In this document: positions 22,191 through 48,412 of the stretch, in pieces
Layout of the letters: the number at the start of each line of letters is the position of its first letter
How positions within the stretch are numbered: the stretch's first letter is position 1
Origin: Candidatus Cloacimonadota bacterium
GTDB taxonomy: Bacteria > Cloacimonadota > Cloacimonadia > JGIOTU-2
NCBI GenBank assembly: GCA_030613025.1
Contig: JAUWMT010000003.1
Coordinates: forward strand, 14,752-78,751
Direction: 5' to 3'
Length of the DNA: 64,000 nt
Program-made: the position numbers and the translations under genes
The notes under the pieces: generated by a model
Database searches by the model: none
What the model was told of the DNA's origin: nothing
Seen by the model: only the letters and a program-made list of their open reading frames with translations

Positions 22191-22245
22191 AAAAATCAAA
22201 CCCGGCTACCACACTATGTGATAGCCAGGTCTGTTTGTATAATCA

Positions 22246-23726: not shown

Positions 23727-26700
23727 TTATTTATGTAAATACACTACCTTCTCGGTACAATATTCTGAAGAAGTGGAAAGTTGAATGAGATATACACCGG
23801 AAGTTATTTTTCTGCCCATAAGATCGCAACCGTTCCAGGTAAGTGAATGTGATCCCTGTCTGAGTTCATTTTCTACCAGAGTACTTATTCTCTGTCCTTT
23901 TATATTAAATATTTCAATACTTACTTTTGAGGGCTGGCGCACATAGTAACCGATAACGAGCTGTTCATAGAATGGTGAGGGATGTGGAGATGAAAGGGTA
24001 AGATTGACTTCCTCTTGAGGATACTCCGACTCATCGACCGACACGCCTGCAACTTCCGCCCAGACGAAATTTTGTGACATATCATAATGAAAATATACAT
24101 CGCTGTTCGCAATCAGACTCAAAAAGAGATTTTCCCCTGTAGTATTTTGATCCCAGTTGTTATTGAGCACGATCTTGTATTCATATTCACCTGATGGGAT
24201 CGCACCAAAGAAAGTGTAGATGCCATCAAAGGCAGCAGCATCACCATCAATACCCTCATCGTTCATTTGTGTAAGAGTGGTTTCCTGATTCCAGTCAATC
24301 CCACCGATCTCAGAGAGAAAATCTCCTACAACCAGAGGAGGATTAGGACTATGAAAAACATACTCGTCATAATTCTTTTCTCCCACCATAATACCACAGT
24401 TCGCATAGATGGTTACCACGGAAGCATCTCCAAGGACAAAGGATTGATTTTCGCCGGGCCAGTCATTGCCATCCCAGCTATTGCTTTCTATGACTTTATA
24501 ATTGTATGAACCTGCAGGAAGCGACAGAACCGCCTGCCACACACCATTATCCATGAGCATCAGATCGTAATCATGATTGCTAGGAGTCCAGCTATTCATA
24601 CTGCCAACAATATGGGGAATGATTATTTCTGTGACTGTGGCAGTATCATAATCTGGATCAATGACATTGCCATGCAGATCTTCTATATTTGACACAACCA
24701 CGTCGCCAAAATCTCCAGTCAGGAAGGTTTCATTTATTGTGATTGTAACTTTTCTAATATGTGACAGCTTTATATTATCAATTGAATAGGAACCCGTGAA
24801 ATTTTCAAATGAGTAATTGGCTACATTGACTGCACTTGTTTCTTCGACTGGTTCGTTATATATGATTTGCAACTTATTATCGCTTACAAGGTATGCTTCT
24901 CCATTCACGATGCGCGGAGCATAGGTATCCTGAAGCTCATCAGCAAGGTCGTCCAGTTCAACTACTTTATTATTATTAACATCATATGGCTCGCTCGTAA
25001 ATCCTGCAAACAGGTATATCACAAAGCTGCCCTGCCCTCTTATTTCATCACCTTTAACAAGGGTGCCTTCAAACTCAGTATTGAATTCTGCGCCAGCATC
25101 TCCGAGAACTATCGCAGCAGTTGCGCCTGATGAGGAATTTCTCTGTCCGCAGTATTCACCCCAGTCACCCCACATTCTCTGCAGATTGGATTTTCCTGAC
25201 CATATCAGATCGAGCAGATCGGGCGACCAGCCGGATTTTATATATCCTGTTTCGTAGCCAAAATTGTACTCAACTGTTAGATGTGAATCACCAGTTTGAA
25301 GAGAAACAACTTTGCTTACTTCATTCTTCATCAATGTCGCCTGCACGCTATCACCAGTTCCTGTATTCACAACCATTGCATAGAGATCATGCTGATAATT
25401 TGGAGAGACTTCGGACAGTGCTGCAACGTGATTATTCGAACTTTCATTATAATCACCGTCAGTTTCAGACCAATATGCCACATCCGAGCCGACGATAGAA
25501 TAACAATTGCCGTAACCATCTTTGACGAAGATCCAGTTTGCCTTTCCACCTATAGTTTCGAACACATAAAATGCCACATCATTATACATGATAAGCTCGT
25601 CAACACCATCCCGATCTATATCAGACAAATAGGATGCAGTGGTTTCTGTGTAGTCGCCATTCGCCCATCTGGATGCTTCTGCATAGACATTTGCATTTTT
25701 CATGTGAGCTGAGTAACGGTGTTCCCAATCAGCTATCTCACCGCTTGTATGCCAGCCGGTTTCATGAAGATTTATCATAAGCGTGTACCAGGCAAGTTGA
25801 GAAAGTCCGTTATCGGGACATGTTATGATATTGTTATATACATCATTCCATACATACCCGTAGGTCCATTTTGGCGAATGATAATCCGAATGAGATTCAG
25901 CAGCAGCCCAATTTATATACCAACTGTTATTACTTCCTCCGTAACCGTCGCCACCGCCAAGGAGTCCATAGGTGCCTGGGGTAATATCAAAGCTAATTCC
26001 ATTGAAGTCAGTATTTGCCAATGCGTCATCGAGCTTCCATACATTGATTGCATTATCATGGCAGTACCAGAGTACGCTTTCATAATTATCCAGAAAGAAG
26101 GTATTATGATGCTCGTTCATTTCAGCTGCAACTTCCCAGTCCGTTCCGTACACAGCAAGTTCGTACTGCCCCTGGGAGCTGATATAATTCTTTGCACCAT
26201 TAGCATCATAGTGCATTTTGCCGACGAATTCATTATCAATTGGAATTACGCGCAAGTTAATGCTGCTTCCACTACTCATCCAATGAATTTTATTTTTATT
26301 AACATTCCAGCAGTGTGGACTGTCATCGAGAATAACTGCATCGACATCGTACTGTTCCCAGTTATCTCCAAGCCAGTCGATCACACCTGCTTCGGGATAT
26401 TGTCCGGGATTGAGCCATACACGTTCGGGAATCCAGGCAACATGCGGAATATAATTATAGCGGTAATCTACCATATCGCATTCGATATTCACTGACCAGT
26501 TATTCATATCATTCTGCATAAAAGGCATAATGTGCTGTCCGAGCGCTGAGGTAAGCATTGCCACCCATCCTTCTGAAGCGCCGGTTTCCAACCAGTCATT
26601 GAATTCCGGATTATGCCATTCCGCAGCAGGCATGAGTGTTCCGGACATGTGAAAATTGCCGGGAATATTTGTCGCCTCATGCACTTCGAGCACTTCGTCA

Positions 26701-27314
26701 AAACCACTTGTTTCCTGGGGATCCTGTCCGTAAAAGACTTCAGTATAGGTCAATCCCTGATTGCCGTGATGTACAAAAGCACAGTTACCTCCACGATACT
26801 GAGTGTTTCCTTTACTGATAAAACTATCTACAAGAATATCATCAATAAGAATATCAACTTTGTAGGTGAGCTGCTCTTTGGAAAATTTATGTATGAAGGG
26901 TGTTGAGCACTCTGCCAAATTGAATGTGGGTGTTCGAAGTATCTTTTCACCTCCGGTTTTCTCAAGAAGAGATTTCAGGGGAAATGTATGCTGACAGATT
27001 ACCTTATTCTCTTTACCTGCAAACAAACTTATTCTTGCAAAAATATCCTTATCCAAAAAATTATCTTTTACTACCTGATTGTGCGAGCGCTGTACCATAT
27101 CATCAAAAGTGATGCGTATAAAGAGAATTTCATTTTCGATACGGGAAAAAACAGAAGTTATATCTCCGCAGGATGCTGCACAGTCACCGACTTCATCAAA
27201 GCCGATAAAATCTTCTTTTTGCCAGACGGAAACATCTCCGGTTATGTCAAATGCGTATGCATTGATGGCGACAAGAAGAAAAACCATCAACACTGCTGAT
27301 AATTTTCTATTCAT
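23727..27314 (-). CDS. Secreted multimodular GH57 amylase/amylopullulanase with X25/CBM-like modules and CTD
   Basis: FVHHGNQ (CSR1), WIPERVW (catalytic Glu), YGTDWE (catalytic Asp); VGSMNSW..YNYKV and VGDF..YEYKIV modules; CTD. Confidence 0.8.
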   Translation of the reverse strand: MNRKLSAVLMVFLLVAINAYAFDITGDVSVWQKEDFIGFDEVGDCAASCGDITSVFSRIENEILFIRITFDDMVQRSHNQVVKDNFLDKDIFARISLFAGKENKVICQHTFPLKSLLEKTGGEKILRTPTFNLAECSTPFIHKFSKEQLTYKVDILIDDILVDSFISKGNTQYRGGNCAFVHHGNQGLTYTEVFYGQDPQETSGFDEVLEVHEATNIPGNFHMSGTLMPAAEWHNPEFNDWLETGASEGWVAMLTSALGQHIMPFMQNDMNNWSVNIECDMVDYRYNYIPHVAWIPERVWLNPGQYPEAGVIDWLGDNWEQYDVDAVILDDSPHCWNVNKNKIHWMSSGSSINLRVIPIDNEFVGKMHYDANGAKNYISSQGQYELAVYGTDWEVAAEMNEHHNTFFLDNYESVLWYCHDNAINVWKLDDALANTDFNGISFDITPGTYGLLGGGDGYGGSNNSWYINWAAAESHSDYHSPKWTYGYVWNDVYNNIITCPDNGLSQLAWYTLMINLHETGWHTSGEIADWEHRYSAHMKNANVYAEASRWANGDYTETTASYLSDIDRDGVDELIMYNDVAFYVFETIGGKANWIFVKDGYGNCYSIVGSDVAYWSETDGDYNESSNNHVAALSEVSPNYQHDLYAMVVNTGTGDSVQATLMKNEVSKVVSLQTGDSHLTVEYNFGYETGYIKSGWSPDLLDLIWSGKSNLQRMWGDWGEYCGQRNSSSGATAAIVLGDAGAEFNTEFEGTLVKGDEIRGQGSFVIYLFAGFTSEPYDVNNNKVVELDDLADELQDTYAPRIVNGEAYLVSDNKLQIIYNEPVEETSAVNVANYSFENFTGSYSIDNIKLSHIRKVTITINETFLTGDFGDVVVSNIEDLHGNVIDPDYDTATVTEIIIPHIVGSMNSWTPSNHDYDLMLMDNGVWQAVLSLPAGSYNYKVIESNSWDGNDWPGENQSFVLGDASVVTIYANCGIMVGEKNYDEYVFHSPNPPLVVGDFLSEIGGIDWNQETTLTQMNDEGIDGDAAAFDGIYTFFGAIPSGEYEYKIVLNNNWDQNTTGENLFLSLIANSDVYFHYDMSQNFVWAEVAGVSVDESEYPQEEVNLTLSSPHPSPFYEQLVIGYYVRQPSKVSIEIFNIKGQRISTLVENELRQGSHSLTWNGCDLMGRKITSGVYLIQLSTSSEYCTEKVVYLHK

Positions 27315-27339: not shown

Positions 27340-30258
27340 CTATTTCAAGATCGCTCCGCTCATTGCCTGAAGAGTGATCTCTACTTCACCTTTGTTGATC
27401 TGATAAGATATATCATTCAAAAGATTTATTACTGATTTCTGACCTTCATTGAAGGGAATCTTCACTGTATGAGCTTGTGTGTCATTATTGATCACGACTG
27501 TGATAGCACACTCATCATCACTTCTCTTATAAGCATAGACCATACCGTTAGTGAGCACTGTATGGAAATCACCGGTTCGAAGGCAGGAGAATTTTTTCCT
27601 GATTTGAATAAGCTTTTTATACCAGTCGCGCAAAGCAACCTTTTCTTTGTCTTTAGTATATTTCCAGTTCATTGGACGACGGCAGTCAGGATCATGTGCT
27701 CCCATCATACCGATCTCGTCGCCATACCAGATATGAGGAGCACCGACATAGGTCATCGAGAACAGCATTGTGATTTTAAGTTTGTCAGTATCCCCTTTGA
27801 TGGATTCAAGATATCGGAAGGTATCATGACTGTCTATGAGGTTCATCATACATTGCACTGCTTGAGTAGGATAGGCAAGCAATCCCTGTTTGATGTCTCT
27901 GTCAAAGGTCTTTGCACTGCAGCTTCTCATTGCAAAGAAACGCATCACAGGATCTTTAAAGAATGCATAGTTCATGACCGCATCAAAATAATGACTATTT
28001 ACCCAATCGGTTGCATTGCCCCAGATCTCACCAACGAGATAGGCATCCGGTTTGATAGACTTCACCTTATCTCGGAAAAGCTCCCAGAACCAAAAAGGTA
28101 CTTCATTAGGCACATCAAGACGGAAGCCGTCGCAATCCATATCCTTGATCCAATATTCTGCTACATCGAGAACATAATTCACCACATCCCAGTTAGGGTC
28201 TGCATCATTGATATTCTTTATACTGTTCTCAGCAGGATTGGGCAGTGTGAGATCCCAGTTAAGGTCAGGCATTTCACCCACTCCCCACCAGCATTCATAA
28301 TAATCTGATGGATTATATTTTGCTGGGATCGGATCCGGCAGAGGCCATTTCTTTATCTCATACCAGTGCCAGTACGGTGAATCCGGTCCTTTCTCCAGCG
28401 CATCTTGAAATGCCCAGAAAGTCTCACCTGTATGATTAAAAGCACAGTCAATAATAATATGAATCCCGTGTTCGTGAGCTACCTTTACAAATTCTTTGAA
28501 TTCCTCGGCTGTACCAAAATGCGGATCGAGTTTCATATAATCAACTGCGTCATATTTATGATTGGATTTCGCTTCAAAAAGCGGGTTGAAATAAATCACA
28601 GTAATTCCAAGATCTTCCAGATAATTGAGTTTTTGACGAATACCGTTAATGTCGCCGCCATAGAAAGACCACCAGTCCGGTTTGCCGTCATGCCTGTATG
28701 GATTGCTCTTCAAGCTTGAGATATCATACCAGTCTTCGACCAGATGAAAATACTGTTTGTTTGAGGGTAATTTCTTTCCCGGCGCAGGTGGCTGGTTAAC
28801 ACCTTCATAATACCATTCTGTAAAATCCTGATCATTTGATTTGTCGCCATTATAAAATCTGTCACAGAATATCTGGTAAATAATGCCGTTCTTTACCCAC
28901 TCCGGCGTGAAGAAGGGTTCGACTGATTCCTTTGAATAATGGAAAACCATATCTTCATCAAAGTTCTCTGTCAGTGCGCCATTAAGAAGGTAATATTCCT
29001 TTCCACCATCAATATATATGAAATAATAATCAAATTCATCTTCAGGTGAATTTAGTTCTATTATTTTATGATAATAATCAAATGTATCGTCTGCATCCAC
29101 AAAATCCAATTCGATCTTCTCTCCATCCTTCCAGAGATAGATATTTTCGAGGTCATTTCTGTGGGCACGAGCTTTGAATTCTATTTTTGTATCGGATATT
29201 GGATTAATCGTTTCCAGCGATTGGCTGGTTGGAATTCCATAAGTCATGATGTTTCCATCACTCATTTCAATCTGGACTTTGGAGAAGCGATTGTCCACAT
29301 CGAGCACGGAATTCTGTCCGCCAAAGCCGTCATCAGCAAAACGGGATGCGCTCATATCTGTGACCCAGTCCATACCGTTCACCACAAATTTGTACTGATA
29401 TTCTCCGCCTTTGAGAAGAAGCGTTGTGCTGAAAAGTCCGTCTTCTGCTTCGTCCATTTTATTGGCTTTTGCATTCCATCCATTAAAGGAACCCGCAAGA
29501 TATACTTCGGTGACGGCTTCCTTATCGGGTCTAAAAGAAAATTCGACTTTATAAAGAGCTTCGACATCCTCTTTGTTACCCACGAACACAATGGAATTCT
29601 GCCCACCAAGTCCGTCGCCGACAAACTCAGTTGCGTTCTCATCAGTAACCCAGTTGCCATCCACAACGAATTTATAGGCATATTTTCCTTTGGGAAGCTG
29701 AACTGTGGTTTTGTATATTCCGTTATCTTCTTCAAGTTTTATGTCTTTATCTGACCAATTATTGAATTCACCTGCCAGATATACTACATGTTTACCACTG
29801 GTGAGTGGTTGATATTCAAAGGTAACAGGGAAGACTCCGCTTTGGGGTTTCGTTTCTTCTTGAATATAGGTTGTCATTGATTCTTCTCCAATAGTTATTA
29901 CTGAGTTTTGTCCACCAAATCCGTCATCAGCAGTAGTTGTATTATTGGGATCGGGTTTCCATTCCGAACCGTTTATCACAAATTTGTATTGATAGGTTCC
30001 GGGTGCAAGATCGAGGGTGACCACCCAGATATCATCCTGTTTTACCATAGGATCAGCTTTTGGATCCCAGCTATTGAAATCGCCTGCAATATAAACATTG
30101 GCTGCGTCAGGTGCTTCATACGAGAAGATTGTTCCGCCTTCTGGTTGGGTTGTTGTGGCTGTTTGAGGTGGTTTGCCCTCAAAAGAGCCAAAGCCCAGAG
30201 TTCCGCATCCTGCAAGAAGCAGTGGAATGATCAGGAGTAAAAAAGAAATACGTTTCAT
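27340..30258 (-). CDS. Lipoprotein GH13 (neopullulanase/cyclomaltodextrinase-like) with three CBM48-like domains
   Basis: Lipobox LLAGC; three AG.FN.W..Y.YKFV..DG.GGQNS repeats; DCAFNH, GFRLDVP, GEIW, LIDSHD. Confidence 0.9.
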   Translation of the reverse strand: MKRISFLLLIIPLLLAGCGTLGFGSFEGKPPQTATTTQPEGGTIFSYEAPDAANVYIAGDFNSWDPKADPMVKQDDIWVVTLDLAPGTYQYKFVINGSEWKPDPNNTTTADDGFGGQNSVITIGEESMTTYIQEETKPQSGVFPVTFEYQPLTSGKHVVYLAGEFNNWSDKDIKLEEDNGIYKTTVQLPKGKYAYKFVVDGNWVTDENATEFVGDGLGGQNSIVFVGNKEDVEALYKVEFSFRPDKEAVTEVYLAGSFNGWNAKANKMDEAEDGLFSTTLLLKGGEYQYKFVVNGMDWVTDMSASRFADDGFGGQNSVLDVDNRFSKVQIEMSDGNIMTYGIPTSQSLETINPISDTKIEFKARAHRNDLENIYLWKDGEKIELDFVDADDTFDYYHKIIELNSPEDEFDYYFIYIDGGKEYYLLNGALTENFDEDMVFHYSKESVEPFFTPEWVKNGIIYQIFCDRFYNGDKSNDQDFTEWYYEGVNQPPAPGKKLPSNKQYFHLVEDWYDISSLKSNPYRHDGKPDWWSFYGGDINGIRQKLNYLEDLGITVIYFNPLFEAKSNHKYDAVDYMKLDPHFGTAEEFKEFVKVAHEHGIHIIIDCAFNHTGETFWAFQDALEKGPDSPYWHWYEIKKWPLPDPIPAKYNPSDYYECWWGVGEMPDLNWDLTLPNPAENSIKNINDADPNWDVVNYVLDVAEYWIKDMDCDGFRLDVPNEVPFWFWELFRDKVKSIKPDAYLVGEIWGNATDWVNSHYFDAVMNYAFFKDPVMRFFAMRSCSAKTFDRDIKQGLLAYPTQAVQCMMNLIDSHDTFRYLESIKGDTDKLKITMLFSMTYVGAPHIWYGDEIGMMGAHDPDCRRPMNWKYTKDKEKVALRDWYKKLIQIRKKFSCLRTGDFHTVLTNGMVYAYKRSDDECAITVVINNDTQAHTVKIPFNEGQKSVINLLNDISYQINKGEVEITLQAMSGAILK

Positions 30259-30282
30259 GTATTTACCTCCATTTATATTTTG

Positions 30283-31245
30283 CTAATATTGTCTACTGAA
30301 GACTGTCATAAAGGTCATGGGGTTATCCTGCTGGGGGATCGTGTCGTCAGCAATATATTGGTCACCACCACCACCGATAATAGCTATCAATGCAATCTTT
30401 GAGCCGATTGGCACTTCACCATTTTCATAAATTTCAGCAAAAGGAATTGCCATTTCAATGACCGAAGTATTTACCACAATATTCGCATTAAAAATATGTT
30501 GATCGACAGCGTAAGGATCTTCCAGACTCACCACAGCAATTTCATAATTCAATGACCATCCTGAGTATGCAAGATCTGCTCCAAAGTTTTCTGGCGCTGT
30601 CACTGTTTTACGGAGATGGTCACCATACCCACCACCTGTAATAGTTGAGAAATCATTGATGCCGGTTCCGTCACCGTAATCCTTATCAATATATATATTC
30701 ACTGCGTTCCCACCAGCATCAAAACCACCATCAACAGCGATATACAAGCTGTCGTCACTTCGAGCAAGATAGAGATTTTCAAAGTTGTTCGAAGGTCCCC
30801 AATTGGAAATGTGTGTGTTTTCATACACAGAATTCCAACTCGGATCGATCGTGCCGTCTATGGTAATGACTTTCACTACAATCGTTTTTATCACGACGAG
30901 TTCGACAGTATCGATCGTGGTCGTTGAAAAGGCATTGACCTGAATATCGCTGACTGTGAAATCATCATAATTAGGTGCTGACACATTAAGCTGATAGGTG
31001 CCTTCAGAAAGATTGCCTATCTCGAAGAAACCGGTAGTATCTGTTGTTGATTCTCCCATTAGTGTAGAAACACCAATTTTATATGCTCGAACAGTTGCGA
31101 TTATCGTATCGGGGGTTGCTTCTTCGAATTGAATAATTCCCTGAATTATTGCGTTATAGCTGAAAGGTGAACCAGTCGGTGTTTTCTCGCATCCAATATA
31201 GAACAGTATTGCGAATATTGAAAGTATCAAAATTATCTTTTTCAT
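30283..31245 (-). CDS. Lipoprotein: carboxypeptidase-regulatory-like Ig domain plus DOMON/CBM9-like domain
   Basis: Lipobox YIGC; TTDTTGFFEI.NL.EGTY; TIDG..LYIAVDG..EMAIPF. Confidence 0.7.
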   Translation of the reverse strand: MKKIILILSIFAILFYIGCEKTPTGSPFSYNAIIQGIIQFEEATPDTIIATVRAYKIGVSTLMGESTTDTTGFFEIGNLSEGTYQLNVSAPNYDDFTVSDIQVNAFSTTTIDTVELVVIKTIVVKVITIDGTIDPSWNSVYENTHISNWGPSNNFENLYLARSDDSLYIAVDGGFDAGGNAVNIYIDKDYGDGTGINDFSTITGGGYGDHLRKTVTAPENFGADLAYSGWSLNYEIAVVSLEDPYAVDQHIFNANIVVNTSVIEMAIPFAEIYENGEVPIGSKIALIAIIGGGGDQYIADDTIPQQDNPMTFMTVFSRQY

Positions 31246-31259
31246 AAGTTACCTCAAAA

Positions 31260-31685
31260 TTAATTTATAATAAGGACAGAATTGCTTCCACCGAAACCGT
31301 CATCGATCATTTCGAAGGCATTGGGATCTTTCACCCAAGTATTTCTGTCTAAGACATATTTATATTCATATCTTCCGGGAGAGAGCTGCTTTATGACAGA
31401 CCAAATTCCGTCTTCGGCAACTCTGTCGCCGTGGGTTCCGTCATCATACATCTTATCAATATTTTCATTGAAAGTTCCTGATGCAGTTGCAGTTCCGCTC
31501 CACATGTTATCAGGAAAATTTCCGGAAAGGGTCACAATTCGTGCAGAAGGGGCTTCAAGTTGGAATAGAACTCCTTCACCGGGAATTCGATGTGGAGCAG
31601 GCAGCCGTTTCTTGATAAAGTTCAATGAACAGGCGGATACAAGGATGAACGAAAGCAGTATTATGATCAAAATTATTTTTTTCAT
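31260..31685 (-). CDS. Small CBM48-like (glycogen-binding) lipoprotein
   Basis: Lipobox LVSAC; APSA..VTLSGNF; DDGTHGD.VAEDGIW insert; PGRYEYKYV..DP..DDGFGG.NS. Confidence 0.75.
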   Translation of the reverse strand: MKKIILIIILLSFILVSACSLNFIKKRLPAPHRIPGEGVLFQLEAPSARIVTLSGNFPDNMWSGTATASGTFNENIDKMYDDGTHGDRVAEDGIWSVIKQLSPGRYEYKYVLDRNTWVKDPNAFEMIDDGFGGSNSVLIIN

Positions 31686-31698
31686 ATTTTGTCGATCC

Positions 31699-33642
31699 TT
31701 AAAATCTCAGCACAGCTTCGATGCCGATACGCTGTTCTTCTGTGAGCGCTTTCTCGGCTTCACGTATCTTTTCACCGAGTCCTGTGTAACTGTTCTCGAG
31801 ATAATTATTGAAATTAGCGATATCATTCATAAATTCAAATCTGCCGATCGGCATAAATTCATCGGTGACATTGCTGAGGGCAATCGGGTTCACGCCCCAG
31901 TATAATGAAATATCAATATTTTTCCTCAGGTGATAAGTTAAGCTGGTAAAGTTGCACCAGAAAACATCCTGCCATTGGCTGAAGTCTGTTTTAACTTGCA
32001 GGAAGGGATCATTGTAGATCGGCACACGGAGATCAGAATATAGTGTCCATTGTGGTGAAATATCCCATTGGAGGGAAGCAATATTTTCAATCAATTTTGG
32101 CTCATATTTAATATCCTGCTGTGCGATCTTGCCCTCGTATCCCACATGGAATTTCTGACGAAATAGCTCGAAATTATAGCCCAGTAGAATATCCCAATAC
32201 ATAGCTGTTTCGTAACCCATGAGAGTGTATTGCGCATATGGCACATTCGTATATTTCTGGAACCAGCGTCCATTTCCGTCCGTCTTCTCCATATACACAT
32301 AATAATCATTCCAGCTTACAAGACTATCAGGAAAATCGGTTTTCCATGAGCTTGCAGCAACCTTCGCATAAATTTTCTCTGTAGAGAATTCTCCACCGAG
32401 TGTAATACGGTTCTTAACTATATCTCTTGCAAACTCAAGTTTATTTCTCTGATAATGAGCAAAGATTTTCATTGCTGCAGGAAATTTCACTTCCAGTCCC
32501 GCAAATATTCTATCACCTTTTGCAAAAGTAGTTTTCAGAGAATCCATATTCTCATTATCACTATCCTTAAAATGATAATATTCACCGGAGAAGATGAGTT
32601 GCATCGGTCCCTGCCAGCCGGGCTGGTTCATGGAATAGACAACCTGCATATCAAATTCCGAACTTGTATGCTCTTTTGAGGAAGTTGAAGTTTGCGGAAG
32701 TTGTGCATGATATTCACCAAATCCGAATCTCAAGGAAGTAGTTTCTGGAATAATATCAAAGAGAACTTTTCCTCTGTAGGCATTGATGTCTGTATCATCG
32801 TCACCGACATTATCTGCAAATACTGCTTCTGCCTGGAATTGTATAGGGATCGCTGTCATTGGAATGGACAACATCGGCAGGTTTGACCATCCATACACAC
32901 CCATGACATCATATCCGAAATTGTAGTTATTACAGCCGATATTTCCAACAAGATGCAGGGGGTCATCAAAGGTAAGGAAGCCGTATTTATCGAATGCCTG
33001 CACCAGAAAATATGGTGTATCAAGCTTGAGGTAGCTTCGCTTGAAATTGAGGTGGGTCTTCCACATATCAACACCTTCAGCAATGTTGTTGATATTCAAT
33101 ACTGTATAGCCCTCAACCTGTGAGTTGAACTTGATCTTCACGCCAAGGTTGATATCATGCAGGGGCTTATCGAGCATCAATTTGTCGTTGTAATCCTTTT
33201 TCTCAAACAGGTTCTTTGAGTATAAACGCCCATCAAAAAGAACTTTAGGATTGAGCAGTGTTCTTATTCCTTGCTGCTGCACAGGTTCCTTCCCTGCAAC
33301 GAGCCCACCTGTTGCATTGACTTCCACTAAAGAGTTCATTCCGCCAAAACCGTCATCCTTCTGCTTGGGATTATCCGGGTCTGCATACCAGTTGTCATCC
33401 ACAACGAATTTGTACATATATGCACCTGAAGAAAGTGGGACAACAATTCTCCAAACTCCGTCATTACCGAGTTTCATTACATGAGCTGATGTGTTCCAGT
33501 CATTGAATTCGCCAGCTACGCTGACCATACCTGCATTCGGTGCTTCATAAAAGAATTCCACACCTTTTTGGGTTGTTGAGACACCTGCAGATGCCATGCT
33601 GACCCAACAAAATATCAATATGAAAAGTATTACTTTTCTCAC
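31699..33642 (-). CDS. CBM48 domain fused to a putative outer-membrane beta-barrel
   Basis: Signal peptide; AGEFNDW..YMYKFVVD..DDGFGGMNS; about 520 aa of amphipathic beta pattern ending IGIEAVLRF. Confidence 0.65.
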   Translation of the reverse strand: MRKVILFILIFCWVSMASAGVSTTQKGVEFFYEAPNAGMVSVAGEFNDWNTSAHVMKLGNDGVWRIVVPLSSGAYMYKFVVDDNWYADPDNPKQKDDGFGGMNSLVEVNATGGLVAGKEPVQQQGIRTLLNPKVLFDGRLYSKNLFEKKDYNDKLMLDKPLHDINLGVKIKFNSQVEGYTVLNINNIAEGVDMWKTHLNFKRSYLKLDTPYFLVQAFDKYGFLTFDDPLHLVGNIGCNNYNFGYDVMGVYGWSNLPMLSIPMTAIPIQFQAEAVFADNVGDDDTDINAYRGKVLFDIIPETTSLRFGFGEYHAQLPQTSTSSKEHTSSEFDMQVVYSMNQPGWQGPMQLIFSGEYYHFKDSDNENMDSLKTTFAKGDRIFAGLEVKFPAAMKIFAHYQRNKLEFARDIVKNRITLGGEFSTEKIYAKVAASSWKTDFPDSLVSWNDYYVYMEKTDGNGRWFQKYTNVPYAQYTLMGYETAMYWDILLGYNFELFRQKFHVGYEGKIAQQDIKYEPKLIENIASLQWDISPQWTLYSDLRVPIYNDPFLQVKTDFSQWQDVFWCNFTSLTYHLRKNIDISLYWGVNPIALSNVTDEFMPIGRFEFMNDIANFNNYLENSYTGLGEKIREAEKALTEEQRIGIEAVLRF

Positions 33643-33661
33643 TATTACTCCTTATATCCTG

Positions 33662-35191
33662 TTAAAACCATGCTTTGAAAACGACTCTAATTTCATCCTG
33701 CATTCTGCCGCCGGACACAAAGCTGTCGTCATTTACAAGTCCATACCCGCCATACCAGCTTGGACCGTATTGAAGATACAGTTCGGAATTACCGCCAATC
33801 CTGTATTGAAGCTCCCCGAAGAAACTCATTCGGGAGCCAACTCTATCATTCACGACAAGTCCACGGGCAAAGGCACGCCAGCGGTCAGAGAGATTCACTG
33901 CACATTCGATTCCGGCGATCTGTTTTTCCCAGGTTTCACCAATATCTTTTATTTTGAACTGCGTAAGTAATTTTGCCAAGCGGTTTTCTACTGAAAGCTC
34001 AACAAAGAAATCATTATGTTTATATTCTTTACCATGCCAGACTTCATCTTTTTTATTATAATAAATTTTTCCCTTGAAGCCGTTCACGAATTCGATATAT
34101 GCTTCTGTATATAGATTTGTGACCGGATCGAGACTGACACCTGTGGAGTACACTTCACCTTCTAATTTCTTGCGCTGCCAGTAGTTCAGGGTGAACGTTA
34201 TAGCTCTTTGGGGAACAAAATAATAGGAATTCACCCAAATGCCATATTCATCTGATTTATTCTCACCCATGTAATTTCTGTAGCATTTCCCATAAGTCCA
34301 GACTCCCGGATTGATGAACCAGTAGCCAATATTTGGAGTGCCGATTCGAAACCCGCGAAATTCCATTTTTGCAGCAACATTTCCTTTGAAGAACTCACGC
34401 AAACCGCTGATGTAATCTCCATCCTTAAAATATTCGTTGCTCTGATCTCTGTAATATTTCAGAGTATCTTTTATTTCCTGCTCAGATGGAACACTGGAAA
34501 ATGCCATCTCAAAATTGATCTGATAATTGCCGATCTCGGCATGCTCGTCAAAGGCAAAAACTTCATTATAGGAATCCTTATCCCCAATTCCATAGTTCTT
34601 ACGTTGATAGAACATCCCGGTCCTGAACTTATTCTTGAATAAATTCTGTCGTAGTCTCACGAGATGGATGTCATCACTATCACCCTGAGAGAAATCTGAA
34701 AAGACATAAGTAGCGCTTCCGCCCAAGGGCTCCCACAGGTCAAAACGCACTCCCTGCCCGTTGCCATCATTATTGACCGAGCCAGTATTGAGCACGTTCA
34801 GCAGAGAGCCATCTGTCCAGTAATGATTATTTTCCCGGGAAAAAAGCACAGCATTGAATCCCCTGCCGTTAACTTCCTGCCTGTAGGAAAGATGGGCTTC
34901 TGCGAGAATCGCTTCAGCATGGTCGGTCATCTGCCCATGCTCGTTCCACTTATCGCCGTAAAATTTCACGTATGCTTCAGAATTTGCTATCGGATTTGCA
35001 TATAATCTGAATTCCACTCTAAAATCAGGATCCCACACATTCCAATGAAAGCTGTCGGATTCATATTTCGTTCCGAAAACGCTCTCAAGATACCCTTCCA
35101 AACGAATTTGGGCATGAATAGAGAATGAGCAGATTACAAGAAAAATCACAACAAATAATATACTTTTTTTCACGTTAGAATACATGTACAT
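33662..35191 (-). CDS. Putative outer-membrane beta-barrel of unknown family
   Basis: Signal peptide ..SIHA; alternating aromatic beta-strands; C-terminal RVVFKAWF beta-signal. Confidence 0.65.
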   Translation of the reverse strand: MYMYSNVKKSILFVVIFLVICSFSIHAQIRLEGYLESVFGTKYESDSFHWNVWDPDFRVEFRLYANPIANSEAYVKFYGDKWNEHGQMTDHAEAILAEAHLSYRQEVNGRGFNAVLFSRENNHYWTDGSLLNVLNTGSVNNDGNGQGVRFDLWEPLGGSATYVFSDFSQGDSDDIHLVRLRQNLFKNKFRTGMFYQRKNYGIGDKDSYNEVFAFDEHAEIGNYQINFEMAFSSVPSEQEIKDTLKYYRDQSNEYFKDGDYISGLREFFKGNVAAKMEFRGFRIGTPNIGYWFINPGVWTYGKCYRNYMGENKSDEYGIWVNSYYFVPQRAITFTLNYWQRKKLEGEVYSTGVSLDPVTNLYTEAYIEFVNGFKGKIYYNKKDEVWHGKEYKHNDFFVELSVENRLAKLLTQFKIKDIGETWEKQIAGIECAVNLSDRWRAFARGLVVNDRVGSRMSFFGELQYRIGGNSELYLQYGPSWYGGYGLVNDDSFVSGGRMQDEIRVVFKAWF

Positions 35192-35196
35192 TTATC

Positions 35197-36078
35197 CTAT
35201 TTGAATTGAATCCCAAAGGAAAGGCGGTAGGTACTACCAAGCTCCTCGTGTGAATACACCGCTCCATCGAGGGTCCAATTTTTCGCTTTTATGCCGAAGC
35301 CGATCGTTAAATAATCTCTGTTCAATCCCATTCTCGGAGCAAACACGTCAAAGAACCAGATCTCCCATCCAAAATGAAGACTGCTCTCGTCTTTATCCCA
35401 GTTATAGTCCAGCAGGAAATTTACTACATCCCGCCATTTATAATGAGCACCAAGAGCAAAGTTTTTTTTGATCTTCTCGCTTTCAGAAACCAGCGTTATA
35501 CTTCTTTCGATGAGATTTCGTGCAGTAAATCCAATTGAGAAATTCTTCAGGGGAGTAGCTATAATGCCCACATCGACATCGAATTTTCCCGGGAGTTTGA
35601 TACCAAGCACTTTGGTAGAGGGACTTTCAACATCATCATAACCCGGCACGCTGACATAGTAATTATCCAAGCTGATACCAAATCTGACAGGGATGTTCTT
35701 ATACCGGATAATGCTTGCTGCCGAGAGTGCTATCACCTGCTCAGAATATTCATCGAGAAGATTTATCTGAGTCCAGCCCATCCCAAGTCGTACTCTTTTC
35801 AAAGGAATGGACAGGGCTACCATCTCATTATACAGATCTCCGATACCATACAGATTCTGGTGAGATACCAGAACAGAGTAGCTGCTTATATAAGATAGAC
35901 CTGCAGGATTCCAGAACACTGCCGAGGGATCATCCGCAAGCCCCACGTATGCTTCGCCCAAAGCCATAGGACGAGCACCCCAGTTCATGCCGATGAAATT
36001 CGCCTGCAATGAAATTGGAATCAACAACAGAACAATAAAAAATAACCCGATACGTTTATTAATACATTTTTTCATCAT
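35197..36078 (-). CDS. PorV/PorP-like (FadL-related) outer-membrane protein
   Basis: GARPMALGEAYVGLADDPSAVFWNPAG N-terminal motif; HEELGSTYRLSFGIQF C-terminus. Confidence 0.8.
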   Translation of the reverse strand: MMKKCINKRIGLFFIVLLLIPISLQANFIGMNWGARPMALGEAYVGLADDPSAVFWNPAGLSYISSYSVLVSHQNLYGIGDLYNEMVALSIPLKRVRLGMGWTQINLLDEYSEQVIALSAASIIRYKNIPVRFGISLDNYYVSVPGYDDVESPSTKVLGIKLPGKFDVDVGIIATPLKNFSIGFTARNLIERSITLVSESEKIKKNFALGAHYKWRDVVNFLLDYNWDKDESSLHFGWEIWFFDVFAPRMGLNRDYLTIGFGIKAKNWTLDGAVYSHEELGSTYRLSFGIQFK

Positions 36079-37214
36079 TATTTAATTACCGAAATAGCTT
36101 CATTACGGCTGACCTCTTTTGAGTCCGAGACCACTCTCAGGATGTAAATGCCAAAGGGAACTTCATTCCCATTCTTATCTTTGCCGTCCCATTCCCAATC
36201 CTGATTTTCCGGATCGATCAGCTCAGCATTGCCAACAAATTCTCCACGCACATCATATATCTCGACATTGAAAGCGCTGATGCGGTTTAGTGTAAGCTGA
36301 AAAGTGAGTTTTTCACCTTTGCTTGACGCAAATACTTTCCCATCCGGGAATTTCACTGAAATAACATTAAGTGGAATCTCTTCAAAAGGAGGAGTTTTAT
36401 TAAAAGTAACCCTCTCTTTTGGACTTATACCAATATCAGGACTTCCGTCTCCAGTAGAATCAACACATATTTCTAGATAATTATCGAGCACTGAAGTTGA
36501 AATACCGTCACTTGGCATTCCTCCGAGATTATTAGGTATGACATCGGGACCGCCAAGATTATCCGAACCCGTGGTGATCACTGCGAGCATTTTCAAGTTT
36601 GGAAAATCCTTCATTGTGTGAAGCGAGTCATAATAGATCACTTCCCACGGAATAGCTGCTTCCATTGCTCTGCCAAGATTACCTGTGTTATATGTCGAGT
36701 AATCCTCAATCGAGACTTCATCTGCCTGTAATGACGAGCCCTCGCGCATTTTCCAGAACTGCGGATTATCATTTGTATCCCAGGTTGCAAGAAAAAAATC
36801 AGGATTGGTGCCGTAGAACTTAAACGCTCTCATCCATGTGTTCAGGTTTAGCATATCCTGAATGCCATAAGAAGGATACACATCAAGATAATAGATCACG
36901 TTATTATCCCAGCAGCAGGCATCGATAGCAACATACAGGTAGGTCAGATCCCAGGTCAGGTCGATCTGTTTGACGTCGTTATATTCACCCCACCAGGAAT
37001 CATCGTCCAGCTCCTGAGATTCGGAAAGGGGCTCCTTTATAAAGAGGCGTTCATCATCCATAAAATCATCACTGAATCCATCAATAATGATCCTGCCACT
37101 GAGGTCATCACCTGTGGTGGCATAAATAGAATTCAAAGAAAATGCAAACAATATAAGAAAGAAGAGACCCCGATGCAAAAATCGGGATCCCCTTTTAAAA
37201 TAGTTTTTCATCAT
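36078..37214 (-). CDS. Secreted DOMON/CBM9-like protein with FlgD-type CTD
   Basis: IIIDG..LTWD.TYLYVAID..EAAIPW; EIYDVRG..WDGKDKNG.EVP.GIY. Confidence 0.75.
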   Translation of the reverse strand: MMKNYFKRGSRFLHRGLFFLILFAFSLNSIYATTGDDLSGRIIIDGFSDDFMDDERLFIKEPLSESQELDDDSWWGEYNDVKQIDLTWDLTYLYVAIDACCWDNNVIYYLDVYPSYGIQDMLNLNTWMRAFKFYGTNPDFFLATWDTNDNPQFWKMREGSSLQADEVSIEDYSTYNTGNLGRAMEAAIPWEVIYYDSLHTMKDFPNLKMLAVITTGSDNLGGPDVIPNNLGGMPSDGISTSVLDNYLEICVDSTGDGSPDIGISPKERVTFNKTPPFEEIPLNVISVKFPDGKVFASSKGEKLTFQLTLNRISAFNVEIYDVRGEFVGNAELIDPENQDWEWDGKDKNGNEVPFGIYILRVVSDSKEVSRNEAISVIK

Positions 37215-37266: not shown

Positions 37267-37458
37267 TCATTGGATCGTTAGCGATGTTTTTAATAAACAT
37301 ATTTTCTTTATTAAAGGTCCTAATATACTATTATTAAAAATCCTTTCCATTTGAATTTTATTAGCTTTGTCGTCGGGGATACCTCTAAACTCTCGTTCAA
37401 GCTTTTTTTGAATATCCCATTTCATTTGTACACAATCAAATCGCTTATGTTTTTTCAT
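37267..37458 (-). CDS. Small putative antitoxin partner of the PIN protein
   Basis: 63 aa, ATGA overlap with the PIN gene; FDCVQMKWDIQ motif. Confidence 0.55.
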   Translation of the reverse strand: MKKHKRFDCVQMKWDIQKKLEREFRGIPDDKANKIQMERIFNNSILGPLIKKICLLKTSLTIQ

Positions 37459-48403: not shown

Positions 48404-48412
48404 AGCTTCACC

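What the first reader, a model, noticed from the sequence alone, without database searches (positions are those of the whole stretch)
30283..35191. Two unknown outer-membrane barrels (one CBM48-fused) with CBM lipoproteins: putative novel maltodextrin channel
Seen: tightly packed genes for a 509-aa barrel ending KAWF, a 647-aa CBM48+barrel fusion ending VLRF, a CBM48 lipoprotein and an Ig+DOMON-like lipoprotein, directly upstream of the GH13 lipoprotein. No TonB box or plug is evident. Inference: a heteromeric porin in which the N-terminal CBM48, probably periplasmic, captures incoming glucan and passes it to the GH13 and the ABC binding domain. This is the most novel core of the locus.
Basis: inference. 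Interest (0 to 1): 0.8.

Follow-up and report, generated by a model that had tools for sequence, protein, structure and literature searches.

The report
Starch-uptake barrels plugged by sugar-binding modules
Two large, unclassified outer-membrane barrels, each apparently paired with a starch-binding module that sits in or at its pore, form the core of an undescribed starch/maltodextrin uptake gene set shared by several little-studied bacterial phyla.

Summary
Window 30283-35191 (minus strand) holds four tightly packed genes:
- a 509-aa barrel;
- a 647-aa CBM48+barrel fusion;
- a 141-aa CBM48 lipoprotein;
- a 320-aa Ig-domain lipoprotein.

All four lie directly upstream of a GH13 lipoprotein. 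AlphaFold2 models are confident (pLDDT 89.4 and 86.5). They show a 24-strand and a 22-strand barrel. Neither has a Plug, TonB-receptor, LamB or usher family match.

The real unit is larger. It also includes a T9SS-CTD protein and a PorV-like barrel upstream. The order CTD protein, PorV-like, B509, CBM48-barrel, CBM48 lipoprotein recurs in 80 loci from Cloacimonadota, Neomarinimicrobiota, Krumholzibacteriota, Eisenbacteria, Latescibacteria and Fibrobacteraceae, usually beside MalEFG and GH13/GH57 genes.

A complex prediction is the new result. It places the 141-aa CBM48 lipoprotein inside the 509-aa barrel (ipSAE 0.75, best control 0.00), touching 16 of the 24 strands. By analogy, the fused CBM48 of the 647-aa protein may plug its own barrel.

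The most likely function is a TonB-independent alpha-glucan conduit with CBM48 plugs. This is not proven. Nothing like it turned up in the six paper searches aimed at it. Heteromer formation between the two barrels was not tested.

The parts
36078..37214 (-). 378-aa secreted protein. It has an N-terminal domain of unknown family (a CBM9/Glucodextran_C-like lead only) and a T9SS-type C-terminal domain. It is the first gene of the conserved module.
   Evidence: FlgD_ig 36.1 bits (cut-off 27); CHU_C E 0.0017; Por_Secre_tail 16 bits, below cut-off. ESM feature hits to a CBM9_1 cluster at 0.84 and a Glucodextran_C cluster at 0.79 are leads only. A CTD protein lies upstream of the barrel genes in 64 of 66 loci with enough sequence. 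The domain is shared with the 322-aa, 459-aa and 320-aa proteins.
35197..36078 (-). 293-aa divergent PorV/PorQ-family-like outer-membrane barrel. Its start overlaps the stop of the CTD gene by 1 nt.
   Evidence: NCBIfam PorV_fam 61 bits, E 1.4e-16, below the cut-off of 90. PorP_SprF E 0.0047. Directly upstream of the B509 homologue in 69 of 72 loci. The genome has SprA and 15 PorV_fam matches, 6 of them over the cut-off.
33662..35191 (-). B509: a 509-aa, 24-strand outer-membrane barrel with no N-terminal domain. Long loops: L3 (119-145), L6 (234-271, two helices) and L12 (476-499). No known family.
   Evidence: AF2 pLDDT 89.4. Best structural matches are the 24-strand usher barrels FimD (Z 17.3, rmsd 5.7, 362 aligned) and PapC (Z 16.8). 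Foldseek TM is at most 0.49. Pfam and NCBIfam give nothing. Single copy in the genome. 185 clusters at E<=1e-3 among 1.84 billion representatives.
31699..33642 (-). B647: 647 aa. CBM48 (21-108), a low-confidence linker (109-132), then a 22-strand barrel (133-647) with helical loops at 437-478 and 583-638.
   Evidence: AF2 pLDDT 86.5. The CBM48 matches 4aef at Z 14.1, rmsd 1.8, 90 aligned. The barrel aligns end to end with TonB-dependent transporter barrels: FecA Z 14.3, rmsd 4.3, 378 aligned; Cir rmsd 3.8, 342 aligned. The fusion is kept in 61 of 61 orthologues that match more than 300 profile positions. The barrel is single copy in the genome.
31260..31685 (-). L141: a 141-aa CBM48 lipoprotein (Cys19) with a conserved post-cysteine motif, LNFIK(K/R)RLPPP. 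It is predicted to sit in the lumen of B509.
   Evidence: Alignment A3 of 47 sequences: R27 and P31 invariant; W62, K109, W117 and N135 invariant. K109, W117 and N135 align with K, W and N of the AMPK beta1 CBM. Complex prediction with B509: ipSAE 0.75, best control 0.00.
30283..31245 (-). L320: a 320-aa lipoprotein (Cys19) with an Ig-like CarboxypepD_reg domain and a C-terminal domain of unknown family. It is an accessory member, missing in some lineages.
   Evidence: A homologue of 290-350 aa was found in 13 of the 80 loci, and longer forms in some Krumholzibacteriota-like loci.
27340..30258 (-). 972-aa GH13 lipoprotein (Cys18) with three CBM48 modules and a neopullulanase/cyclomaltodextrinase-type catalytic domain.
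   Evidence: Alpha-amylase domain 199 bits; AMPK1_CBM in three stretches. Closest solved chains are TVAII/neopullulanase 2 at E 1.3e-116 and cyclomaltodextrinase at E 1.1e-106.
23727..27314 (-). 1195-aa T9SS-secreted protein with X25 starch-binding domains and a weak GH57-like match.
   Evidence: X25_BaPul_like 96.1 bits; Glyco_hydro_57 E 0.0079, below cut-off; Por_Secre_tail TIGR04183 30.3 bits. Orthologues follow GH13 in several loci.
22246..23625 (-). 459-aa T9SS-CTD protein that shares a domain with the 378-aa and 322-aa proteins. It is the last gene before the terminator-like hairpin.
   Evidence: Por_Secre_tail 35.2 bits. blastp to the 322-aa protein E 6.8e-25.
22197..22233 (-). Terminator-like hairpin (17-pair stem, 8 G-C pairs, T-rich tail). 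Probable end of the transcription unit.
   Evidence: This is a consensus scan only. Terminator-like sites in the region: 19 found against 12.4 +/- 2.4 in shuffles.
47567..50701 (-). MalE-MalF fusion (762 aa) and MalG (278 aa) ABC importer. They are adjacent to the module in relatives. Here a roughly 10-kb lower-GC block of T9SS cargo genes separates them from it.
   Evidence: SBP_bac_1 plus BPD_transp_1 in one ORF. MalG is immediately upstream of the CTD gene in L018 and L022. GC 0.33-0.36 at 38-44 kb against 0.41-0.42 in the module.

Best explanation
The four genes are the core of a conserved outer-membrane alpha-glucan (starch/maltodextrin) uptake module in a Cloacimonadota genome.

What the parts are:
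- B509 is a 24-strand barrel and B647 is a 22-strand barrel. Neither has a TonB-type plug.
- Each is paired with a CBM48 starch/glycogen-binding module that enters from the periplasmic side.
- In B509 the module comes in trans, as the 141-aa lipoprotein. That lipoprotein is predicted to fill the periplasmic half of the lumen, with its lipid anchor at the periplasmic rim and loops L3 and L12 closing on it from outside.
- In B647 the module is fused in cis to the N-terminus. This placement is inferred.

Proposed working:
1. T9SS-secreted GH57-like/X25 enzymes cut starch outside the cell.
2. Surface proteins hold the polymer. These are the 378-aa CTD protein, probably tethered by its cognate PorV-like barrel, and the 320-aa lipoprotein.
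3. Fragments pass the two wide barrels along the CBM48 modules, which act as specificity elements or substrate-displaced plugs, without TonB energy.
4. The neopullulanase-type GH13 lipoprotein trims the fragments.
5. MalE-MalF/MalG imports the products.

Status of each step:
- Shown: the folds, the domain content, the conserved gene order, and the absence of known transporter families.
- Predicted: the L141-in-B509 complex.
- Inferred: the cis plug in B647, the channel function, the direction of transport, and the side of the membrane on which GH13 and L320 sit.
For: Folds:
- 24 strands by DSSP, with all 11 even-to-odd turns only 2-5 residues long, as expected for periplasmic turns.
- 22 strands after a CBM48 and a linker.
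- best structural matches are 24-strand usher barrels and 22-strand TonB-transporter barrels respectively.

No known transporter family.

Link to alpha-glucan use:
- In 10 of 10 loci taken from 10 of the 21 matching Cloacimonadota genomes, the order is CTD protein, PorV-like, B509, B647, L141, (L320), GH13. MalEF/MalG lie upstream in 8 of the 10; L021 and L023 show none.
- In the 80 loci from at least six phylum-level groups:
  - PorV-like upstream in 69/72;
  - CTD protein upstream in 64/66;
  - B647-like downstream in 60/65;
  - L141 in 50/57;
  - a MalEF/MalG, GH13 or GH57 gene within the fetched locus in 64/80.
- CBM48 is fused to the barrel in 61/61 orthologues.

Complex prediction:
- ipSAE 0.77/0.71/0.75, median 0.75, against a best control of 0.00.
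- That mark was reached by 58 of 80 solved complexes and by 2 of 110 mismatched pairs in the tool's calibration.
- The runs agree in at least 83% of contacts, and partner pLDDT is at least 78.
- Contacts fall on 16 of the 24 strands with an i, i+2 pattern, on periplasmic turns T4 and T7-T9, and on loops L3 and L12. The partner is therefore enclosed by the barrel.

Conservation:
- Contact residues of B509 are more conserved than the rest: mean 0.66 against 0.48, Mann-Whitney p 1.9e-5. At 90% conservation or more: 16/65 against 46/417, Fisher p 0.004.
- In L141, W62, K109, W117 and N135 are invariant across phyla. K109, W117 and N135 align with K, W and N of the AMPK beta1 CBM. That these are the sugar-contacting positions is recalled, not tested.

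Genome context:
- No LamB and no SusD.
- 3 Plug-bearing transporters and 2 TonB elsewhere.
- GH13 is closest to neopullulanase/cyclomaltodextrinase enzymes, which act on oligosaccharides.
Against: - There is no experimental data, and no RNA run holds the locus.
- The complex is a single prediction made with my own alignments. The tool says its calibration then holds only roughly.
- An empty 24-strand barrel may attract any small domain. One control with an unrelated partner also made 133 contacts, though none was confident.
- Lumen-facing residues are more conserved in barrels in general, so the conservation enrichment is weak support.
- L141 contact residues are not significantly enriched for conservation at the 90% level (Fisher p 0.14).
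- W117 is itself in the predicted interface, so the canonical sugar site may be buried rather than lining a channel.
- The position of B647's own CBM48 could not be read. No coordinates or PAE were available, and the linker has pLDDT 44-63, which fits a free periplasmic domain as well as a plug.
- The two barrels show only a weak shared C-terminal motif (hhalign probability 11%), so the 'fusion versus split' parallel rests on architecture, not proven homology.
- A fully plugged barrel without an energy source would not conduct.
Confidence: 0.5

Rival explanations
1. The two barrels form a heteromeric open porin. The CBM48 of B647 and the L141 lipoprotein are free periplasmic receivers that catch incoming glucan and hand it to GH13 and the MalE domain. 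They are not in the pore.
For: The CBM48 is N-terminal to strand 1 and so lies on the periplasmic side. The 24-residue linker has low confidence, pLDDT 44-63. L141 lacks acidic residues after its cysteine, which would fit a periplasm-facing lipoprotein; that sorting rule is recalled from Bacteroidota. The two barrel genes are always adjacent.
Against: The complex prediction puts L141 inside B509 with high confidence and zero-scoring controls. Open 22- and 24-strand barrels with nothing in the lumen would be very wide, non-selective holes; every solved barrel of that size listed (ushers, TonB transporters, LptD, MtrB) carries a plug or partner in the lumen, which is recalled knowledge. Heteromer formation was not tested.
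Confidence: 0.17
2. The barrels are not conduits but membrane scaffolds. Like LptD-LptE, they hold the CBM48 lipoprotein, and through it the amylolytic proteins, in a stable outer-membrane complex. Sugars enter through an unrelated general porin.
For: The barrel-plus-lipoprotein-plug architecture is predicted. The module also carries an anchoring pair, the CTD protein and the PorV-like barrel. No open channel has been demonstrated.
Against: Two large dedicated barrels are a costly way just to anchor a 12-kDa domain that already has a lipid anchor. The CBM48 would be hidden from the polymer. The genome has no LamB or SusD alternative. The module is constantly linked to MalEFG.
Confidence: 0.15
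3. The barrels are translocons that move CBM48-bearing lipoproteins (L141, and the GH13 with three CBM48 modules) or L320 to the cell surface. The CBM48 seen in the lumen is a transport intermediate.
For: L141 and the GH13 share CBM48 modules. A 24-strand lumen could take a folded 100-residue domain, by my own estimate. The strongly conserved post-cysteine motif of L141 could be a recognition signal.
Against: There is no similarity to Slam, BamA or TamA families (only generic barrel matches). B647 carries its CBM48 covalently, so that module cannot be a passenger. The predicted lipid-anchor end of L141 sits at the periplasmic rim.
Confidence: 0.08
4. The module exports an alpha-glucan (capsule or storage polymer) made by the nearby GT4 and GlgE-like enzymes, with the CBM48 modules guiding the outgoing chain.
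For: GT4 and GlgE-like genes lie at 50803-53650 in the same window. AlgE and other polysaccharide-export barrels appear among the structural matches.
Against: The conserved neighbours are hydrolases (GH13, GH57-like) and an ABC importer with a solute-binding domain. No Wza/OPX, PCP or synthase-type partner is in the module. AlgE-type matches are no better than other barrels.
Confidence: 0.04

Closest known systems
Bacteroidota starch utilisation system (SusC/SusD with SusE/F/G; 'utilisome')
   Same: An outer-membrane gene set for alpha-glucan capture, cleavage and import. It combines a 22-strand barrel, several lipoproteins with starch-binding modules and a GH13 lipoprotein, feeding a periplasmic/inner-membrane pathway. 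It occurs in the same superphylum.
   Different: No Plug or TonB_dep_Rec family match. No SusD in the genome. There are two different barrels instead of one. The CBM48 stands where the plug would be. A PorV-like barrel and a T9SS-CTD protein are integral members. The inner-membrane step is an ABC importer.
LptD-LptE (large barrel with a lipoprotein plug)
   Same: In the prediction, a lipoprotein anchored at the periplasmic rim fills the lumen of a barrel of more than 20 strands. LptD chains appear among the structural matches at Z 11.1-11.7.
   Different: No OstA/LptD or LptE family match. 24 strands, not 26. The plug is a carbohydrate-binding module. The genomic context is starch use, not LPS export.
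Maltoporin LamB and the cyclodextrin channel CymA
   Same: The proposed job is the same: TonB-independent, substrate-specific passage of maltodextrins. CymA offers a precedent, recalled and not tested here, for a mobile element in the pore that the substrate displaces.
   Different: LamB is an 18-strand trimer and CymA a 14-strand monomer (recalled). There is no LamB family match in the genome. Here the barrels have 22 and 24 strands, and the pore element is a whole CBM48 domain.
Chaperone-usher barrels FimD/PapC
   Same: The best structural match of B509: 24 strands, Z 17.3 and 16.8.
   Different: No usher family match, no internal plug domain, no N- or C-terminal usher domains, and 8-9% identity. 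The likeness is one of barrel size only.
T9SS PorP/PorV-type anchoring of CTD proteins
   Same: A CTD-bearing protein is encoded next to a PorV/PorP-like barrel. This fits the reported anchorage of type B CTD proteins by PorP-like proteins (PMC9143113, title and start of abstract seen in the listing) and the specialised shuttle proteins (PMC12618676, listing only).
   Different: The 293-aa protein scores below the PorV_fam cut-off (61 against 90 bits). The type of the CTD is ambiguous. The pair is embedded in a sugar-uptake operon. Binding was not tested.

Membership tests
TonB-dependent transporter / SusC | N-terminal Plug domain (PF07715) | tested here: not met
   No match in B509 or B647 at E up to 10. 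The same model finds 3 other genes in this genome. In B647 the plug's position is taken by a CBM48.
TonB-dependent transporter / SusC | 22-strand barrel of the TonB_dep_Rec family (PF00593) | tested here: inconclusive
   No sequence match. However, the B647 barrel (133-647) aligns end to end with FecA (Z 14.3, rmsd 4.3, 378 aligned) and Cir (rmsd 3.8, 342 aligned). Z values of unrelated porins are as high, so this shows size and fold, not kinship.
TonB-dependent transporter / SusC | TonB box at the N-terminus | not testable with these tools
   No model for this short motif is available. By eye the mature N-terminus (GVSTTQKG...) runs straight into the CBM48. No claim is made either way.
SusD/RagB lid lipoprotein | SusD_RagB family protein next to the barrel | tested here: not met
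   PF07980 finds nothing in the whole genome (98.45% complete), while the control rings in B. thetaiotaomicron.
Maltoporin (LamB) | LamB family (PF02264), 18-strand barrel | tested here: not met
   No match in the genome or in either protein. The models have 24 and 22 strands.
CBM48 (glycogen/starch-binding module) | Family match above cut-off and CBM48 fold, for the N-terminus of B647 | tested here: met
   PF02922 at 42.6 bits (cut-off 22.4) and PF16561 at 51.2 bits (cut-off 26.8). VIA Z 14.1, rmsd 1.8, 90 aligned to 4aef, plus AMPK beta and branching-enzyme CBM48 chains.
CBM48 (glycogen/starch-binding module) | Family match for the 141-aa lipoprotein | tested here: inconclusive
   PF16561 gives 20.6 bits, below the cut-off of 26.8. 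Against that: blastp to B647's CBM48 at E 1.7e-18; profile A3 against AMPK beta1 CBM chains at E 6.9e-5 and a pullulanase CBM at E 1.3e-6. Membership is very likely but the curated cut-off is not reached.
CBM48 (glycogen/starch-binding module) | Sugar-contacting Trp/Lys/Trp/Asn kept | tested here: met
   W62, K109, W117 and N135 are invariant in 47 L141 sequences. W49, K78, W85 and N103 are invariant in 48 B647 sequences. K109, W117 and N135 align with K, W and N of AMPK beta1. That these are the ligand-contacting residues is recalled from the AMPK beta1-cyclodextrin structure. Binding itself was not tested.
PorV/PorQ family (T9SS outer-membrane shuttle/anchor) | NCBIfam PorV_fam score over cut-off | tested here: inconclusive
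   61 bits against a cut-off of 90, E 1.4e-16, with the best stretch on residues 26-88. Weak PorP_SprF and FadL-type hits. Conserved adjacency to a CTD protein.
Chaperone-usher | Usher family sequence, with plug and N-/C-terminal domains | tested here: not met
   No Pfam match. B509 has no domain outside the barrel. Only barrel-size similarity.
LptD/LptE | OstA/LptD and LptE family sequences | tested here: not met
   No Pfam or NCBIfam match. The likeness is architectural only.

The most novel reading that the evidence does not exclude
This would be a previously unrecognised class of outer-membrane glycan transporter, ancient in the non-Bacteroidota FCB phyla. Very wide barrels of 22-24 strands are gated not by a TonB-driven plug but by a carbohydrate-binding module lodged in the pore. 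The module is fused to the barrel in one case and supplied as a lipoprotein in the other. Substrate recognition and pore opening would then be the same event, which could allow long or branched alpha-glucan fragments to be taken up without TonB energy.
Probability: 0.35. Interest if true: 0.9.

Novelty: new variant of a known kind. Interest (0 to 1): 0.78.

Why it matters
Glycan uptake across the outer membrane is understood mainly through two models: TonB-dependent SusCD systems of Bacteroidota, and small specific porins such as LamB.

This module is neither. It is conserved in at least six poorly studied phylum-level groups that are common in sediments, digesters and the ocean, and none of its barrel components has a family name.

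If the predicted CBM48-in-barrel arrangement holds, three things follow:
- it would show a new way to make a wide pore selective;
- it would explain how these uncultured lineages feed on starch-like polymers;
- it would give annotators a marker set for alpha-glucan use outside Bacteroidota.

It also makes a testable prediction: a small lipoprotein plug inside a 24-strand barrel, which could be checked with a two-protein co-expression and cryo-EM.

Tried and rejected
Family and structure searches that found nothing
- Pfam and NCBIfam on both barrels gave no informative family. The one hit, DUF3567 at E 0.0087 and below cut-off, is taken as chance.
- Foldseek against PDB gave only generic barrel matches, with TM at most 0.49 for B509 and 0.40 for B647.
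- hhalign of the two barrel alignments found only a 65-column C-terminal stretch at probability 11%. Homology of the two barrels is therefore not established.

The 'DOMON-like' domain
- Nothing was found for the C-terminal domain of the 320-aa protein in Pfam at E up to 5, in PDB by single sequence, in PDB by a 29-sequence profile, or in the precomputed Pfam domains of 48 homologues.
- For the 378-aa protein, PDB matched only its C-terminal Ig domain.
- ESM Atlas gave scores of 0.78-0.88, below the level the tool calls more than a lead.

Other checks
- The N-terminus of P0203 compared with the CBM48 profile: no similarity, probability 1.3%.
- Promoter scan: 64 sites against 57.4 +/- 6.4 in shuffles, so no promoter is claimed.
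- Expression: no RNA holder was listed for window 27340-37214.
- Earlier-findings look-ups by place and by sequence returned nothing.

Literature
- Six searches aimed at the system found no description of it.
- Passages read in PMC6851124 and in bioRxiv 10.1101/2021.10.08.463351 did not mention it.
- The library lacks most subscription journals, and supplements were closed.

What could not be done
- The models' coordinates and PAE were not available to me. I could not see where AF2 placed B647's CBM48, nor measure pore openings.

Script error: one search failed on an empty list and was corrected.

Full report
THE OBSERVATION

All genes of interest lie on the minus strand.
- 33662-35191: 509 aa, ends KAWF.
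- 31699-33642: 647 aa, ends VLRF.
- 31260-31685: 141 aa.
- 30283-31245: 320 aa.

The 972-aa GH13 gene follows 24 nt downstream (27340-30258). Intergenic gaps within the set are 13-24 nt.

Read directly from the sequence:
- both barrels have type I signal peptides;
- the 141-aa, 320-aa and GH13 proteins have lipoboxes with Cys19, Cys19 and Cys18.

Pfam confirms CBM48 at residues 22-110 of the 647-aa protein and an Ig-like CarboxypepD_reg domain in the 320-aa protein. The 141-aa protein is below the Pfam cut-off. It is nevertheless clearly related to the CBM48 of the 647-aa protein (blastp E 1.7e-18) and to AMPK beta CBM chains (profile E 6.9e-5). The 'DOMON-like' label for the second half of the 320-aa protein could not be confirmed. 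Only weak language-model leads point to CBM9/Glucodextran_C.

THE TWO BARRELS

AlphaFold2 with alignments of 42 and 48 homologues gave confident models: pLDDT 89.4 with pTM 0.78, and pLDDT 86.5 with pTM 0.73.

B509
- From the DSSP strings, B509 has 24 strands that start right after the signal peptide.
- All eleven even-to-odd turns are 2-5 residues long, as expected for periplasmic turns.
- Three odd-to-even loops are long: L3 (119-145), L6 (234-271, two helices) and L12 (476-499).
- VIA-align puts the 24-strand usher barrels first: FimD Z 17.3, rmsd 5.7, 362 aligned; PapC Z 16.8.

B647
- B647 has a CBM48 (21-108), a low-confidence linker (109-132) and 22 strands (133-647), with helical insertions in two outer loops.
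- The barrel aligns end to end with TonB-dependent transporter barrels: FecA Z 14.3, rmsd 4.3, 378 aligned; Cir rmsd 3.8.
- The N-domain matches CBM48 structures at rmsd 1.6-2.6.

Shared points
- Foldseek TM-scores stay at or below 0.49 for B509 and 0.40 for B647.
- Neither protein matches Plug, TonB_dep_Rec, LamB, OprB or usher models, even at E 10.
- The two barrels share only a short C-terminal motif (hhalign probability 11%).
- Both are single copy in the genome.

THE REAL EXTENT OF THE UNIT AND ITS DISTRIBUTION

Names attached to homologues place the organism in Cloacimonadota.

Within the phylum
- The B509 profile is found in 21 of 151 genomes and 11 of 53 genera. The trait is therefore accessory.
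- In 10 of 10 loci taken from 10 of those 21 genomes, the order is: 378-aa CTD protein, 293-aa PorV-like barrel, B509, B647, L141, usually L320, then GH13. MalE-MalF and MalG lie upstream in 8 of the 10; L021 and L023 show none.

Across species genomes
- A scan found 137 relatives. The 80 loci kept come from Cloacimonadota, Neomarinimicrobiota, Krumholzibacteriota, Eisenbacteria, Latescibacteria and Fibrobacteraceae, plus unclassified MAGs.
- Counting only loci with enough flanking DNA:
  - a PorV-like gene lies directly upstream of B509 in 69/72;
  - a CTD protein lies upstream in 64/66;
  - a B647-like gene lies downstream in 60/65;
  - an L141-like gene lies after it in 50/57;
  - 64 of 80 loci hold a MalEF/MalG, GH13 or GH57-like gene within the fetched stretch.
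- Most misses trace to my naive ORF calling in high-GC genomes.
- All 61 B647 orthologues that match more than 300 profile positions include the N-terminal CBM48.

Rarity
- The family has only 185 clusters at E<=1e-3 among 1.84 billion representatives.

In this window
- The CTD gene and the PorV-like gene overlap by one base.
- The packed series continues through GH13, a 1195-aa X25/GH57-like T9SS protein and a 459-aa CTD protein.
- It ends at a 17-pair terminator-like hairpin at 22197-22233.
- The ABC importer sits 10 kb upstream, behind a lower-GC block of T9SS cargo genes. In relatives it is adjacent.

THE NEW EVIDENCE: A CBM48 INSIDE A BARREL

The reasoning for the test
- B647 is a CBM48 followed by a barrel.
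- B509 is a bare barrel.
- L141 is a CBM48 homologous to that of B647.

On that basis I spent the single complex job on B509 (28-509) with L141 (20-141), using alignments A1 and A3.

Scores
- 0.77, 0.71 and 0.75, median 0.75, against 0.00 for all three controls. Two controls used unrelated partners and one an unrelated first chain.
- In the tool's calibration this mark was reached by 58 of 80 solved complexes and by 2 of 110 mismatched pairs. Because I supplied my own alignments, those counts hold only roughly.
- The runs agree in at least 83% of contacts, and partner pLDDT is at least 78.

Geometry of the interface
- Confident contacts lie on strands 2, 3, 4, 9, 10, 11 and 13-22, that is 16 of 24.
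- They often fall at alternating positions, for example 217/219, 292/294, 321/323/325, 330/332/334/336, 429/431/433 and 439/441.
- They also lie on periplasmic turns T4 and T7-T9, and on outer loops L3 and L12.
- A partner touching strands all round the circumference through inward-facing residues must be inside the lumen. The positions place it in the periplasmic half, capped by L3 and L12.
- The conserved post-cysteine motif of L141, LNFIK(K/R)RLPPP (R27 and P31 invariant), contacts the rim near turn T7 (R27 with A330). The lipid anchor would therefore sit in the inner leaflet.

Conservation
- B509 contact residues are more conserved than the rest: 0.66 against 0.48, p 1.9e-5. At 90% conservation or more: 16/65 against 46/417, p 0.004.
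- Part of this is expected for any lumen-facing residue.
- L141 contact residues show no significant enrichment at the 90% level (p 0.14).

HOW IT PROBABLY WORKS

Shown
- Two plug-less large barrels.
- CBM48 modules with invariant Trp/Lys/Trp/Asn: W62, K109, W117, N135 in L141 and W49, K78, W85, N103 in B647. K109, W117 and N135 align with the AMPK beta1 K, W and N. Their role in sugar contact is recalled, not tested.
- A constant link to GH13, GH57-like and MalEFG genes.
- A genome without LamB or SusD that does have TonB and three ordinary plugged transporters elsewhere.

Predicted
- L141 fills B509.

Inferred
- The fused CBM48 of B647 does the same in cis.
- Both units are alpha-glucan conduits in which the CBM48 provides the binding track, or is nudged aside by substrate.
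- The 378-aa CTD protein is exported by the T9SS and held on its neighbouring PorV-like barrel. SprA is present, and the genome has 15 PorV_fam matches. Type B CTD proteins are reported to be held by PorP-like proteins (PMC9143113, seen as listing and start of abstract only).
- The neopullulanase-type GH13 (closest to TVAII at E 1.3e-116) trims imported oligosaccharides for the ABC system.

A rough geometric estimate of my own: a Cα radius of about 22 Å for 24 strands against a domain of about 25 x 30 Å. This suggests a 100-residue plug need not seal a 24-strand lumen, but I could not measure it.

Rivals
- A scaffold that only anchors the complex (0.15).
- A lipoprotein or CBM48 surface translocon (0.08).
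- Glucan export (0.04).

COMPARISON WITH KNOWN SYSTEMS

Functionally the closest is the Bacteroidota Sus system. Architecturally the closest is LptD-LptE, a lipoprotein in a large barrel. In its proposed job it resembles LamB or CymA. It is a member of none of these: the defining families were tested and not found (see the membership table). The only firm family assignments are:
- CBM48 for the N-terminus of B647;
- CarboxypepD_reg for L320;
- GH13 for the enzyme;
- a T9SS-type C-terminal Ig domain for the 378-aa protein.

The PorV-like barrel scores below its family cut-off (61 against 90 bits).

NOVELTY AND PRIOR NOTES

Six literature searches aimed at the system found no description of it. 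The library lacks most subscription journals, and supplements were closed.

Three earlier notes of this scan, on other genomes, describe the same conserved module as an uncharacterised alpha-glucan outer-membrane set: e1-3772292, e1-4959192 and e1-1167407. I re-derived the synteny independently. Those notes are not independent evidence.

- confident barrel models with strand counts;
- the CBM48-in-barrel prediction with controls;
- the conserved L141 N-terminal motif;
- the cross-phylum counts.

VERDICT

The locus is a real, conserved and unnamed outer-membrane alpha-glucan module. Its most interesting feature is a carbohydrate-binding module lodged in a wide barrel. That feature rests on one well-controlled prediction and needs a structure or an electrophysiology experiment.

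Noticed in passing
window 37455-47536: A roughly 10-kb block separates MalG from the module. It has lower GC (0.33-0.36 against 0.41-0.42). It holds a 152-aa protein without family, a 1119-aa peptidase C13/beta-helix CTD protein, two further CTD proteins (486 aa with FG-GAP repeats, and 464 aa) and an 889-aa PKD-repeat CTD protein. In relatives MalG is adjacent to the module or separated by one GH57-like gene, so this looks like an insertion of T9SS cargo genes.
   Followed up: partly
window 48413-50701: The solute-binding protein and the first permease of the maltose-type ABC importer are fused in one 762-aa ORF (SBP_bac_1 plus BPD_transp_1). The fusion is kept in Cloacimonadota loci. In Eisenbacteria-type loci the matches fall in two separate ORFs.
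   Followed up: partly
proteins P0203 and P0206 (distant B509 relatives): Two distant relatives of the B509 barrel (E 5.5e-44 and 4.6e-42 to the profile) carry an extra N-terminal stretch of about 180-200 residues in cis. P0206 matches CsgG (31.1 bits, cut-off 20.8) and, below cut-off, LpoB models; P0203 matched no Pfam family. This hints that barrels of this superfamily generally pair with a periplasmic-side domain.
   Followed up: partly
window 31260-31685, residues 79-98 of the 141-aa protein: A 'choice-of-anchor X' motif (NCBIfam NF041940, 35.2 bits, cut-off 25) sits in a loop of the CBM48. The loop is present in Cloacimonadota and Neomarinimicrobiota copies and shortened by about 8 residues in Eisenbacteria-type copies. 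It is not among the predicted contact residues.
   Followed up: no
loci L034 and L091: Two contigs carrying the module are filed under archaeal MAGs (Methanosarcinales, Thermoplasmata). With PorV-like and outer-membrane barrel genes on them, they are most likely bacterial contigs binned wrongly.
   Followed up: no
window 16660-17163: A 167-aa IS110-type transposase ORF (DEDD_Tnp_IS110, 90.5 bits), probably truncated, lies between the GH77 gene and the T9SS-CTD genes.
   Followed up: no
window 14588-16078 and 50803-53650: Cytoplasmic alpha-glucan enzymes flank the locus: a GH77 4-alpha-glucanotransferase (576 bits), a GT4 glycosyltransferase and a GlgE-like maltosyltransferase-type protein.
   Followed up: no
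whole genome G000: The PorV_fam model gives 15 matches in the genome, 6 of them over the cut-off. That suggests many specialised PorV/PorQ-like barrels in this 2.8-Mb genome.
   Followed up: no
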